From the NCBI RefSeq assembly GCF_050320075.1, contig NZ_CP190018.1: a stretch of DNA of 64,000 nucleotides. The stretch is one strand, 5' to 3'. Origin of the DNA: Escherichia coli. Its GTDB lineage: Bacteria > Pseudomonadota > Gammaproteobacteria > Enterobacterales > Enterobacteriaceae. The notes under the pieces are model-generated. The model was not told the origin of the DNA and ran no database searches. It saw only the letters and a list, made by a program, of their open reading frames with translations. This document shows positions 6,808-8,190 of this stretch, one piece after another (the stretch's first letter is position 1; each line of letters begins with the position of its first letter). The position numbers and the translations under genes were made by a program.

Positions 6808-8190
6808 TCAACCTGCCACACTCCCCCACACCAGTTGCCCTTTATGGAACGTCGCCGTTCTCGGCGAGATACGCGCCACCGCCTCGGCGGAACAGGAGGC
6901 GTCCACCAGCACAAAGCTGGCATCATCCTGCGCTTTGGGCCACACGCGCTCGCCTTTTTCGTTGAGCGGCAATACATCGCCAGTGGCTAAAAACAGCGAG
7001 CGGGAGAGGTTCTGTTCGTTAGGACGAATATAGAGCTGCGCGTACAGATTGGCTTTTTCCAGCATGTCGCCCAGGCCGTAAGGCGACCAGTGGTCGATAA
7101 CGCTGTCGGTGCCGGTCATCACTTTTACGCCTTTGTCGTGCAACTGTTTGAGCGGCATATGCAGCGTGCCAATCGGCACCGTCGAGGCGATAGAAATTTG
7201 CTGCGCCGCCATCCGGTGCGCCAGTTCATCTACCTGTTGCTCATTGAGCGTTGCCAGCGCAAAGGCGTGGCTGATGGTCAGCTTGCCCTTCAGTTGCGGC
7301 GTTTTCTCCACCGTTTCAACCATATAATTGATGGCTGCCACGCCTGCCGGAGTGGTTTCGTGCAGGTGAATATCAACGCCTTTGTCGTAGTCCAGCGCAA
7401 TCTGGAACATGGTGTCGAGGGATTTTTCCATCGCGCCATCAACACTGGTCGGGTCCAGCCCGCCGACGTAATGCGCCCCCGCCTGCATCGCTTCGCGCAT
7501 TAAGGGTTCTGATTTCGACAGCAGCAAACCGTGCTGCGGGAAGGCGACAATTTCACACTCGAAGCCCGCCTGACGTCGCGCCAGAACCGCCTGCAAATTT
7601 TGCAGATTTTTCAGGCCGGAAACCGGTTCGATATTGCAGTGGCTGCGGGAAATGGTAGTGCCTTTCGACTGCAATAAATCAATCAGTTTTTCCGCCCTTT
7701 CCTGAGTGTACGGTTGCAACTCCGGCAGCATTTTCTGCTCGAGTTTGATCATGTCCTGGATGGTGGTGCATGCCGGACGATTGAGCGAGCGCCACGGCCC
7801 GCCGTAGAAGGTTTTGTCGAGATGAATATGCATGTCGCGGGTGGTGGGCAGCATCAGCTTACCGCCAGCGTCATAGTGCGGCAGCGTGGCGTCCGGATGC
7901 TGATTGTTCTCGCGCAGTGCAACAATTTTGCCGTTCTGAATTTCCACAGTCTGGCGCGCCGTGCGGGTCTGCACCGCCACGCCATTTTCGTAGTCAAAAC
8001 CGGTTTCCAGCAACACGTTGTCGAGATAGTAGTGCGGGTCAGTGATTTTCATGGTGTTATTCGCGTCGCAGTGGGTTGTGCCAGAGACTGCCGCATGGGC
8101 GAGCGGCACAGAGGTACCAAACAGCGCGGCGGCGGTGACCATCTTACCGCTCTGGCTCAGAAACTCACGGCGGCTATTGCTTTCTTTCAT
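6808..8190 (-). CDS. yahJ: Metal-dependent amidohydrolase/deaminase with a Tat-type signal peptide (460 aa)
   Basis: HxH motif in TTRDMHIHLDKTFYGG. N-terminus MKESNSRREFLSQSGKMVTAAALFGTSVPLAHAA. Length and synteny match K-12 YahJ. Confidence 0.9.
   Translation of the reverse strand: MKESNSRREFLSQSGKMVTAAALFGTSVPLAHAAVSGTTHCDANNTMKITDPHYYLDNVLLETGFDYENGVAVQTRTARQTVEIQNGKIVALRENNQHPDATLPHYDAGGKLMLPTTRDMHIHLDKTFYGGPWRSLNRPACTTIQDMIKLEQKMLPELQPYTQERAEKLIDLLQSKGTTISRSHCNIEPVSGLKNLQNLQAVLARRQAGFECEIVAFPQHGLLLSKSEPLMREAMQAGAHYVGGLDPTSVDGAMEKSLDTMFQIALDYDKGVDIHLHETTPAGVAAINYMVETVEKTPQLKGKLTISHAFALATLNEQQVDELAHRMAAQQISIASTVPIGTLHMPLKQLHDKGVKVMTGTDSVIDHWSPYGLGDMLEKANLYAQLYIRPNEQNLSRSLFLATGDVLPLNEKGERVWPKAQDDASFVLVDASCSAEAVARISPRTATFHKGQLVWGSVAG

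What the first reader, a model, noticed from the sequence alone, without database searches (positions are those of the whole stretch)
8089..8190. YahJ carries a twin-arginine export signal while the rest of the pathway looks cytoplasmic
The YahJ N-terminus MKESNSRREFLSQSGKMVTAAALFGTSVPLAHAA has an SRREFL Tat motif, a hydrophobic h-region and an AHA cleavage motif.

The amidohydrolase would therefore act in the periplasm as a folded, metal-loaded protein. YahD, E, F, G and I have no signal peptides.

That implies a two-compartment pathway: periplasmic deamination or ring opening, then uptake of the product. No dedicated transporter is encoded in the operon. The membrane protein YahC, encoded divergently, is the nearest candidate.
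Basis: partly seen in the sequence, partly recalled or inferred. Interest (0 to 1): 0.5.

Follow-up and report, generated by a model that had tools for sequence, protein, structure and literature searches.

The report
Known Tat export signal on YahJ
The E. coli enzyme YahJ does begin with a twin-arginine export signal, but this was published years ago and is already used as a biotechnology secretion tag; the only new point is that related bacteria carry a nucleobase-type permease gene in the same operon, which the E. coli lineage lost and may have replaced with YahC.

Summary
Confirmed, but already known. Window 8089-8190 (minus strand) encodes the first 34 residues of YahJ (6808-8190, 460 aa): SRREFL, a 14-residue h-region and AHA|A. 

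RR, F10 and the -1 Ala are almost invariant in 84 distinct homologue N-termini, while the residues after the cleavage site vary freely. More distant family members lack the extension. 

YahJ is in published Tat-substrate lists. TatP predicted this exact peptide. ssYahJ has been used as a secretion tag and is described as recognised by both Tat and Sec. 

The mature protein is an AtzC/cytosine-deaminase-type metal amidohydrolase, so deamination is more likely than ring opening. 

YahE/F/G/I are paralogues of the oxamate carbamoyltransferase AllHFG and carbamate kinase, and have no signal peptides. 

The "no transporter" point holds for this lineage only. In 31 species the operon has a ~515-aa AzgA-like "xanthine permease" gene between yahG and yahI and no yahC. 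In 10 species, as in this window, that slot is empty and yahC (DUF1097) is present. This traces to one evolutionary event. 

yahJ also occurs alone with a LysR gene, and the D-I module occurs without yahJ. YahJ therefore looks like an optional periplasmic front end. Substrate unknown.

The parts
8092..8190 (-). YahJ signal peptide, residues 1-33 (MKESNSRREFLSQSGKMVTAAALFGTSVPLAHA); predicted cleavage after AHA
   Evidence: Identical peptide predicted by TatP in PMC7549933 Table 2. Features lie within the range of other E. coli Tat signals.
8158..8175 (-). Twin-arginine motif S6-R7-R8-E9-F10-L11
   Evidence: R7 84/84, R8 83/84 and F10 84/84 in distinct homologue N-termini. Only strict match among 1470 start sites in the window.
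8101..8142 (-). h-region M17-L30, moderately hydrophobic
   Evidence: The 17-residue uncharged stretch M17-A33 (h-region plus AHA) has mean Kyte-Doolittle 1.31, against 1.23 +/- 0.24 for 23 other Tat signals.
8092..8100 (-). c-region A31-H32-A33 (AxA signal peptidase I site); no basic Sec-avoidance residue
   Evidence: The -1 Ala is present in 82/84. The -3 position is A, S or V in 76/84.
8197..8201 (-). Shine-Dalgarno AAGGA for yahJ, overlapping the yahI stop codon (8200-8202)
6808..8091 (-). Mature YahJ (residues 34-460 plus stop). AtzC/cytosine-deaminase-like mononuclear metal amidohydrolase with H121/H123, H275-L-H277-E278, H308 and D362.
   Evidence: Pfam Amidohydro_3 1.6e-19. NCBIfam PRK06846 713 bits, cutoff 447, matching residues 49-459 only. 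PDB 6nbo 3.9e-43, AtzC, CodA. Invariant residues (its numbering is one lower); positions.
8200..9150 (-). yahI, carbamate kinase family; no signal peptide
9151..9245 (-). Empty 'yahH slot': 95-bp yahG-yahI spacer. Most other genera carry a ~515-aa AzgA-like permease gene here.
   Evidence: No permease remnant in the window by tblastn. The K-12 slot is described as filled with REP sites (PMC11551758).
9246..10664 (-). yahG, AllG (YlbE) family
   Evidence: Pfam AllG 4.5e-89.
10664..12211 (-). yahF, FdrA/AllF family
   Evidence: NCBIfam PRK06091 490 bits. Pfam CoA_binding and Ligase_CoA.
12201..13064 (-). yahE, AllH family
   Evidence: Pfam AllH 2.3e-28.
13104..13709 (-). yahD, ankyrin-repeat protein, no signal peptide; first gene of the operon
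   Evidence: Orthologues of 55-68% identity lead the same operon in Brevibacillus and Janthinobacterium.
13967..14464 (+). yahC, DUF1097 small membrane protein, divergent from the operon; candidate replacement for the lost permease
   Evidence: Pfam DUF1097. Present in all 10 loci that lack the permease and in none of the 31 that have it. PMC3454398, PMC11036815.
14556..15488 (+). yahB, LysR-type regulator; the only neighbour that recurs next to yahJ across all contexts

Best explanation
Window 8092-8190 (-) encodes a cleavable twin-arginine signal peptide. It targets YahJ to the periplasm, most likely as a folded, metal-loaded enzyme exported through TatABC. Signal peptidase I then cleaves after A31-H32-A33.

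Mature YahJ is an AtzC/cytosine-deaminase-type mononuclear metal amidohydrolase. Its likely reaction is hydrolytic removal of an exocyclic amino or alkylamino group from a nucleobase-like heterocycle. Ring opening is less likely.

Shown here: the sequence features, their conservation, the family assignment and the gene contexts.

Taken from the literature: the TatP and TATFIND predictions, and reporter export by ssYahJ.

Inferred:
1. The native protein uses Tat rather than Sec.
2. The deaminated product is taken up. The carrier would be an AzgA-like permease encoded in the operon in most genera, or possibly YahC (DUF1097) in the Escherichia/Kluyvera/Raoultella clade.
3. Inside the cell, YahEFG, an AllFGH-type carbamoyltransferase, and YahI, a carbamate kinase, convert a ureido intermediate to carbamoyl phosphate and then to ATP.

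YahJ is an optional add-on to that cytoplasmic module, not a fixed part of it.
For: Sequence and start site.

Conservation of RR, F, L and AxA, with a hypervariable linker after the cleavage site.

The extension is clade-specific. Homologues of <=46% identity start at about query residue 50, and the NCBIfam profile covers residues 49-459 only.

Feature values fall within the range of 23 E. coli Tat signals. YahJ is the unique strict match in the window.

Literature:
- TatP prediction of the identical peptide, and a delta-yahJ competitive index of 0.70 in ExPEC (PMC7549933).
- TATFIND-derived substrate list (PMC3027627).

Enzyme class.

Cytoplasmic module; AllFGH biochemistry in PMC11326118.

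Permease in the operon of 31 species, named xanthine or AGZA-family permease by source databases.

Nucleobase theme elsewhere:
- Brevibacillus has a PucR regulator gene next to the operon, and an NCS1 permease, a CDA-fold deaminase and an AzgA-like permease within it.
- A signal-less YahJ relative lies next to a Bmp-type ABC system.
Against: - Curated HMMs do not call the signal. TIGR01409 scores 14.6 against a 16.7 cutoff, and Pfam TAT_signal gives no hit.
- ssYahJ is described as usable by both Tat and Sec (PMC6788121). It has no basic residue in the c-region, and the start of the mature protein is neutral to acidic. The signal peptide alone therefore does not force Tat routing.
- No experiment on native full-length YahJ was retrievable here.
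- The link between YahJ and YahEFGI is only co-location. yahJ occurs alone with a LysR gene in 30 loci. The D-E-F-G-permease-I module occurs without yahJ in Janthinobacterium and on E. coli plasmids.
- No ring-opening enzyme is encoded in the operon to connect a deaminated heterocycle to a linear ureido substrate.
- The yahC/permease exclusivity is one evolutionary event.
Confidence: 0.8

Rival explanations
1. YahJ is a stand-alone periplasmic deaminase, used for nitrogen scavenging or detoxification of an aminated heterocycle. Its position at the end of the yahD-I operon in enterobacteria is a gene-order accident or a loose regulatory convenience. There is no two-compartment pathway.
For: - In 30 of 80 species-level loci, yahJ has none of yahD/E/F/G/I nearby. 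The only recurrent neighbour is a LysR regulator.
- The D-I module works without yahJ in Janthinobacterium and in the mobile E. coli copy.
- No ring-opening enzyme links the two halves.
Against: - yahJ is translationally coupled to yahI: a 9-nt gap, with the Shine-Dalgarno sequence overlapping the stop codon.
- This arrangement is kept in 41 species across Enterobacterales.
- Brevibacillus has a non-homologous deaminase at the same operon position after the carbamate kinase. This suggests a deamination step belongs to the pathway.
Confidence: 0.35
2. The peptide is a real export signal, but native YahJ is exported unfolded by Sec. The twin arginines are incidental.
For: [quoted passage not shown]
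- There is no Sec-avoidance basic residue in the c-region.
- The first residues of the mature protein are neutral or acidic.
- TIGR01409 is below its cutoff.
Against: - RR is kept in 83/84 distinct N-termini, and F10 in 84/84, over 57-98% identity. A Sec n-region needs only positive charge and would tolerate K.
- The h-region hydrophobicity is typical of Tat signals.
- The passenger is a metal enzyme.
Confidence: 0.1
3. The ankyrin-repeat protein YahD is YahJ's partner. It would be either a signal-less hitch-hiker co-exported on YahJ's Tat signal, or a cytoplasmic chaperone that holds YahJ before export. That would be the reason a Tat signal is used.
For: - yahB-yahD-yahJ occurs without E/F/G/I in Erwinia persicina, Cedecea and one Enterobacter.
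- In four Microvirga species an ankyrin protein lies directly downstream of yahJ. In Pararhizobium one lies about 4 kb away. These proteins carry their own N-terminal signal peptide.
Against: - True YahD orthologues (55-68% identity) lead yahEFG-permease-yahI operons that have no yahJ at all.
- The signal-bearing alphaproteobacterial proteins are only about 40% identical, so they may be a different ankyrin family.
- The B-D-J arrangement can be explained by an internal deletion.
Confidence: 0.1
4. The start codon is mis-assigned. Translation begins at M17 or M47, and YahJ is cytoplasmic.
For: In-frame Met codons exist at positions 17 and 47. Signal-less family members start near residue 50.
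Against: - A good Shine-Dalgarno sequence lies 6 nt before the first ATG, which is only 9 nt after the yahI stop.
- Residues 1-33 are conserved at the protein level across genera. M47 is not conserved.
- RefSeq annotates the 460-aa form.
Confidence: 0.02

Closest known systems
Cofactor-less or simple-metal E. coli Tat substrates (AmiA, AmiC, SufI, MdoD, YcbK, CueO, EfeB)
   Same: N-terminal S/T-R-R-x-F/L-L motif, a 13-24-residue uncharged stretch and an AxA site. YahJ's values fall inside their range. It is listed with them in PMC7549933 and PMC3027627.
   Different: - The consensus Lys after F-L is Ser here; a Lys follows five residues later (K16).
- The signal is reported as Tat/Sec-promiscuous (PMC6788121).
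- The physiological substrate of the enzyme is unknown.
AtzC (N-isopropylammelide isopropylaminohydrolase) and cytosine deaminase CodA, amidohydrolase superfamily
   Same: Best solved relatives: 6nbo 3.9e-43, 2qt3 2.4e-30, CodA about 1e-15. YahJ shares the HxH, H-x-H-E, H and D residues.
   Different: - The matched PDB chains align from near their own N-termini, with nothing aligned to YahJ residues 1-75.
- AtzC and CodA are cytoplasmic (general knowledge, not tested here). YahJ carries a 33-residue export signal plus a variable linker of about 13 residues.
- The YahJ substrate has not been determined.
AllFGH oxamate carbamoyltransferase plus the AllK carbamate kinase of anaerobic allantoin degradation (PMC11326118, PMC9843812)
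   Same: YahE, YahF, YahG and YahI match the AllH, FdrA/AllF, AllG and carbamate kinase families.
   Different: - This is a separate paralogous operon.
- It is led by an ankyrin protein and ends with an exported deaminase.
- In most genera it includes an AzgA-like permease.
- Its substrate is not known to be oxalurate.
YcdZ ('NupT'), the other E. coli DUF1097 protein
   Same: Small polytopic inner-membrane protein of the same Pfam family as YahC. It was predicted to be a nucleoside transporter of the CytR regulon (PMC3454398). A homologue sits next to preTA-hydA pyrimidine catabolism genes in Anaerostipes (PMC11036815).
   Different: No transport activity has been shown for any DUF1097 protein in the sources read here. 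YahC's link to the yah operon rests on one gene-replacement event.
AnkB, periplasmic ankyrin-like protein needed for full KatB catalase activity in Pseudomonas aeruginosa (recalled from memory, not checked here)
   Same: A bacterial ankyrin-repeat protein encoded next to an enzyme that it supports.
   Different: AnkB is recalled as periplasmic (from memory), whereas enterobacterial YahD has no signal peptide. No functional data exist for YahD.

Membership tests
Twin-arginine (Tat) signal peptide | S/T-R-R-x-F-L-K-type motif at the n/h boundary near the N-terminus | tested here: met
   S6-R7-R8-E9-F10-L11, followed by S instead of K. It is the only strict match among 1470 start sites in the window.
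Twin-arginine (Tat) signal peptide | Moderately hydrophobic uncharged h-region followed by a small-x-small (AxA) cleavage site | tested here: met
   17-residue uncharged stretch with mean Kyte-Doolittle 1.31, against 1.23 +/- 0.24 for 23 E. coli Tat signals. AHA at residues 31-33.
Twin-arginine (Tat) signal peptide | Selective conservation of the twin arginines among orthologues | tested here: met
   R7 84/84, R8 83/84, F10 84/84. The motif is present in 62/64 auto-scored loci. Exceptions are three Labrys species and one Xenorhabdus RH variant.
Twin-arginine (Tat) signal peptide | Score above the curated cutoff of the profile models (TIGR01409, Pfam TAT_signal) | tested here: not met
   TIGR01409 14.6 bits against cutoff 16.7, E 0.033. 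Pfam gives no hit. These short models are known to miss true signals. TatP 1.0 does call this peptide (PMC7549933).
Twin-arginine (Tat) signal peptide | Tat-dependent export shown experimentally | not testable with these tools
   PMC6788121 states that ssYahJ mediates periplasmic translocation in E. coli and is recognised by both Tat and Sec, citing Tullman-Ercek 2007 and Fisher 2008. The primary papers (PMC2730154, PMC3057487) were not held. No data on native YahJ were seen.
Amidohydrolase superfamily, AtzC/cytosine-deaminase branch (NCBIfam PRK06846) | Profile score above cutoff, and the HxH / H / H / D metal ligands with the H-x-x-E deaminase motif | tested here: met
   NF005312 713 bits against cutoff 447. 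Pfam Amidohydro_3 71 bits against 29.7. H121, H123, H275, H277, E278, H308 and D362 are invariant. The assignment of roles to these residues rests on knowledge of CodA and AtzC, not on a test here.
Amidohydrolase superfamily, AtzC/cytosine-deaminase branch (NCBIfam PRK06846) | Catalytic activity and substrate | not testable with these tools
   No biochemical data found. The AlphaFold model was too poor to analyse the pocket (pLDDT 59.8).
AllFGH-type carbamoyltransferase plus carbamate kinase module (neighbours YahE/F/G/I) | Three subunits of the AllH, AllF(FdrA) and AllG families encoded together with a carbamate kinase | tested here: met
   Pfam AllH 2.3e-28 and AllG 4.5e-89. NCBIfam FdrA 490 bits and carbamate kinase 643 bits. 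Activity and substrate were not tested.
Lipoprotein signal (considered and rejected) | Lipobox [LVI][ASTVI][GAS]C at the end of the signal | tested here: not met
   The first Cys is C41, in the context T-T-H-C, eight residues after AHA. This Cys is not conserved in all homologues.

The most novel reading that the evidence does not exclude
The yah locus encodes an uncharacterised, ATP-yielding catabolic route for an aminated nucleobase-like compound, split across two compartments:
1. Tat-exported YahJ deaminates the compound in the periplasm.
2. The product enters through an operon-encoded AzgA-like permease.
3. YahEFG, a second AllFGH-type carbamoyltransferase, and YahI then make carbamoyl phosphate and ATP.

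In the Escherichia/Kluyvera/Raoultella clade the permease was replaced by YahC. That would make DUF1097 a new family of nucleobase or ureide transporters.
Probability: 0.25. Interest if true: 0.55.

Novelty: already known. Interest (0 to 1): 0.25.

Why it matters
The Tat signal adds nothing new. YahJ has been on E. coli Tat-substrate lists since the early 2000s, and its signal peptide is a published secretion tag.

The modest value lies in the context:
- The yahD-J genes are still function-unknown ("y-ome") genes, of the same enzyme type as the recently solved AllFGH oxamate carbamoyltransferase.
- The comparative data give concrete leads for assigning their function: a nucleobase-type permease in the ancestral operon, a non-homologous deaminase in the same position in Brevibacillus, and YahC as the stand-in transporter in E. 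coli.
- A reported mild fitness defect of delta-yahJ in an ExPEC infection model (PMC7549933) adds some interest.

Tried and rejected
- Lipoprotein signal: rejected. There is no lipobox, and C41 sits in a T-T-H-C context and is not conserved.
- Internal start at M17 or M47: rejected on Shine-Dalgarno position, coupling to yahI, and conservation of residues 1-33.
- Uncleaved membrane anchor: unlikely. The AxA site is conserved (82/84 at -1), and the uncharged stretch from M17 to the cleavage site is only 17 residues.
- Downstream ABC transporter (919-4210, IS150-disrupted) as the missing transporter: rejected. It is separated from yahJ by an ASCH gene, and no close homologue of it lies beside yahJ in the 80 other species.
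- Permease remnant in the 95-bp yahG-yahI spacer: none found by tblastn or blastn-short.
- Family assignment of the ~515-aa permease by Pfam, NCBIfam and PDB sequence search: no hits. Its identity rests on names given by source databases.
- AlphaFold2 model of YahJ from a 14-sequence alignment: poor (pLDDT 59.8). Used only to note that residues 1-46 are unstructured. No fold search was run.
- Primary papers of Tullman-Ercek 2007, Fisher 2008 and Lee 2006: not held. The experimental claim is therefore cited second-hand from PMC6788121.
- The AllFGH and AllK papers do not mention the yah paralogues.
- YahD as Tat hitch-hiker: kept only as a low-probability rival, because YahD orthologues occur in operons without yahJ.
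Full report
**Observation**

The finding's coordinates lie on the minus strand. ORF 6808..8190 (-) encodes a 460-aa protein that starts MKESNSRREFLSQSGKMVTAAALFGTSVPLAHAAVSG. Positions 8089-8190 are exactly its first 34 codons.

The window is E. coli chromosome. The 8.6-kb stretch 6000-14600 is 100% identical to several RefSeq genomes. At least 80% of it is present in 4978 of 5426 complete E. coli genomes, annotated yahD, yahE, fdrA (yahF), yahG, yahI and yahJ, with yahC and yahB divergent.

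The first ATG is a credible start. AAGGA lies 6 nt upstream and overlaps the yahI stop codon. Only 9 nt separate the two genes.

**Is it a Tat signal, and more than chance?**

- SRREFL occupies residues 6-11. An uncharged stretch runs from M17, and AHA occupies residues 31-33.
- I compared YahJ with 23 other E. coli Tat signal peptides taken from PMC7549933 Table 2. Its RR position, length, uncharged-stretch length and hydrophobicity all fall inside their range.
- Among 1470 possible start sites in all six frames of the window, only YahJ matches [ST]RRxF[LIVM]. A looser filter also recovers YagT/PaoA at 55772-56461, a known Tat substrate, which serves as a positive control.
- Conservation is the strongest argument. 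In 84 distinct homologue N-termini, R7 is 84/84, R8 83/84, F10 84/84, L/I11 84/84 and the -1 Ala 82/84. Positions 35-46 are hypervariable.
- Across 80 species-level loci from Enterobacterales, Rhizobiales, Rhodobacteraceae and Halomonas, the motif is present in nearly all. Three Labrys species have degenerate versions.
- Family members of 46% identity or less are about 400 aa and begin at about query residue 50. The NCBIfam profile PRK06846 covers residues 49-459 only. The extension is therefore an acquired, clade-specific targeting sequence.
- Two curated profile models do not call it. TIGR01409 scores 14.6 bits against a cutoff of 16.7. Pfam TAT_signal gives no hit.

**Already known**

- YahJ (b0324) is in the TATFIND-derived list of E. 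coli Tat substrates reproduced in PMC3027627.
- TatP 1.0 predicted the identical 33-residue peptide in ExPEC strain PCN033. In that study a delta-yahJ mutant had a competitive index of 0.70 in mice (PMC7549933).
- PMC6788121 used ssYahJ as a secretion tag in E. coli and Vibrio natriegens. [quoted passage not shown] - I could not retrieve those primary papers.
- The promiscuity fits the sequence. There is no basic residue in the c-region, and the start of the mature protein is neutral to acidic.

**What YahJ is**

- Pfam Amidohydro_3/Amidohydro_1, and NCBIfam PRK06846 at 713 bits.
- The nearest solved relatives are an AtzC-like protein (6nbo, 3.9e-43), AtzC itself, and cytosine deaminase.
- H121-x-H123, H275-L-H277-E278, H308 and D362 are invariant in a 14-sequence alignment. 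From what is known of CodA and AtzC, these are the mononuclear metal ligands and the catalytic Glu.
- This favours hydrolytic deamination, or removal of an N-alkylamine, from a heterocycle. It does not favour ring opening.
- An AlphaFold model was poor (pLDDT 59.8). It showed only that residues 1-46 are unstructured and that the first beta strands start at residue 52.

**The rest of the operon**

- YahE, YahF and YahG match the AllH, FdrA/AllF and AllG families. YahI is a carbamate kinase.
- AllFGH was shown in 2024 to be the three-subunit oxamate carbamoyltransferase, which converts oxalurate to oxamate and carbamoyl phosphate (PMC11326118). That paper does not discuss the yah paralogues.
- None of YahD, E, F, G or I has a signal-like N-terminus by a simple heuristic.

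**The transporter question**

This is where the comparison with other genomes changes the picture.

- In 31 of 41 species that carry the full operon, a ~515-aa polytopic membrane protein is encoded between yahG and yahI, and yahC is absent. These include Citrobacter portucalensis, Trabulsiella, Enterobacter, Lelliottia, Leclercia, Serratia, Buttiauxella, Providencia, Proteus, Moellerella and Zophobihabitans.
- In the other 10, the slot is about 100 bp and yahC is present. These are Pseudocitrobacter, Kluyvera, C. amalonaticus, Raoultella and one Klebsiella. The window itself has the same arrangement.
- There are no exceptions.
- The membrane protein has no Pfam, NCBIfam or PDB sequence match. 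Source databases name it xanthine permease, AGZA-family xanthine/uracil permease-like, or adenine/guanine/hypoxanthine permease. It is 65-99% identical from Enterobacterales to Brevibacillus.
- The window's 95-bp spacer (9151-9245) holds no remnant of it. In K-12 the slot is described as filled with REP sites (PMC11551758).
- A YahF+YahG tree places all yahC-type operons in one clade. The swap happened once, so the exclusivity is suggestive but not statistical evidence.
- Independent hints make a DUF1097 protein a reasonable stand-in. Its paralogue YcdZ was predicted to be a CytR-regulated nucleoside transporter (PMC3454398). A DUF1097 gene also sits beside preTA-hydA in Anaerostipes (PMC11036815).

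**Modularity**

- The D-E-F-G-permease-I module occurs without any yahJ in Janthinobacterium.
- It also occurs without yahJ in a second copy found in 142 E. coli genomes, mostly on conjugative plasmids.
- Brevibacillus has the same operon, with a PucR regulator gene alongside and an extra NCS1 permease. A small CDA-fold deaminase follows the carbamate kinase, at the position YahJ holds in enterobacteria.
- Conversely, yahJ occurs with only a LysR gene in 30 loci. It occurs as yahB-yahD-yahJ in Erwinia persicina and Cedecea.
- The most economical reading is this. The cytoplasmic module imports and degrades a nucleobase-like or ureido compound, and YahJ is an optional periplasmic front end that widens the substrate range.
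- This is inference. No ring-opening enzyme is encoded that would connect a deaminated heterocycle to a linear ureido substrate.
- A stand-alone role for YahJ remains a serious rival.

**YahD**

- The ankyrin protein leads the operon everywhere, at 55-68% identity even in Brevibacillus and Janthinobacterium.
- In Microvirga and Pararhizobium, an ankyrin protein next to yahJ carries its own signal peptide. It is only about 40% identical.
- A role as Tat hitch-hiker or export chaperone cannot be excluded, but it is weakly supported.

**Verdict**

The two-compartment idea is plausible. The YahC guess gains some support. "No transporter" applies to this lineage only. "Ring opening" is unlikely.
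- Interest is low to moderate. It rests on the context, not on the signal peptide.

Noticed in passing
window 55772-56461 (+): A second Tat signal in the window: [53 protein letters not shown]. This is YagT/PaoA, the small subunit of the periplasmic aldehyde oxidoreductase, also listed in PMC7549933 Table 2.
   Followed up: partly
window 919-6543 (-/+); L001 2967-9511: In this strain an island lies between yahJ and yahK. It holds an ASCH-domain gene (6100-6510) and a sugar/AI-2-type ABC transporter. The transporter's substrate-binding gene is split by an IS150 insertion (transposase 4261-5630). I recall that K-12 has no such island, but this was not checked.
   Followed up: partly
L086 (E. coli TUM9803 chromosome); hits H13-H28: 142 of 5426 complete E. 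coli genomes carry a second, about 70-80% diverged copy of the operon: LysR | ankyrin-AllH-FdrA-YlbE-xanthine permease-carbamate kinase. It has the permease but no yahJ, and is mostly on conjugative plasmids (106 plasmid places, 46 chromosomal). In the one locus examined it is flanked by IS elements.
   Followed up: partly
window 8188-8214 (-); proteins P0001, P0004, P0006, P0008, P0120: yahI and yahJ are in the same reading frame, separated by a stop codon plus three codons (IIKT*GRKM). A single stop-codon change would fuse them. Predicted 779-780-aa YahI-YahJ fusions exist in public data. In such a fusion the signal peptide would be internal and presumably useless.
   Followed up: partly
proteins P0009, P0012, P0016, P0019, P0024, P0027, P0030, P0034-P0036: Many E. 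coli YahJ entries are 414-434 aa with an intact N-terminus. They are shorter than the 460-aa form, which suggests recurrent truncation or decay of yahJ in some lineages.
   Followed up: no
L066, L073, L076 (Labrys spp.); P0090 (Xenorhabdus szentirmaii); P0124: Rare departures from RR: HR, LR or a proline-rich degenerate h-region in three Labrys species, RH in one Xenorhabdus, and RK in a distant homologue. These may be decaying signals or tolerated variants.
   Followed up: no
L082/L083 (Brevibacillus) 2403-11554: A Firmicute version of the operon has a PucR regulator gene alongside and contains two different nucleobase-type permeases (NCS1 and AzgA-like) and a 152-aa CDA-fold deaminase in place of YahJ. 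The ankyrin protein and the permease are 55% and 72% identical to enterobacterial ones, which suggests horizontal transfer of the whole unit.
   Followed up: partly
L088/L089 8001-9233: A signal-less YahJ relative (46% identity, 410 aa) lies directly downstream of a Bmp-family (nucleoside-binding lipoprotein type) ABC transporter and a TetR regulator.
   Followed up: no
window residue 141 of YahJ (within 6808-8190): This strain has Cys in RPACTT, where the 14-sequence consensus is RPAGTT. This is a difference from the homologue consensus of unknown consequence.
   Followed up: no
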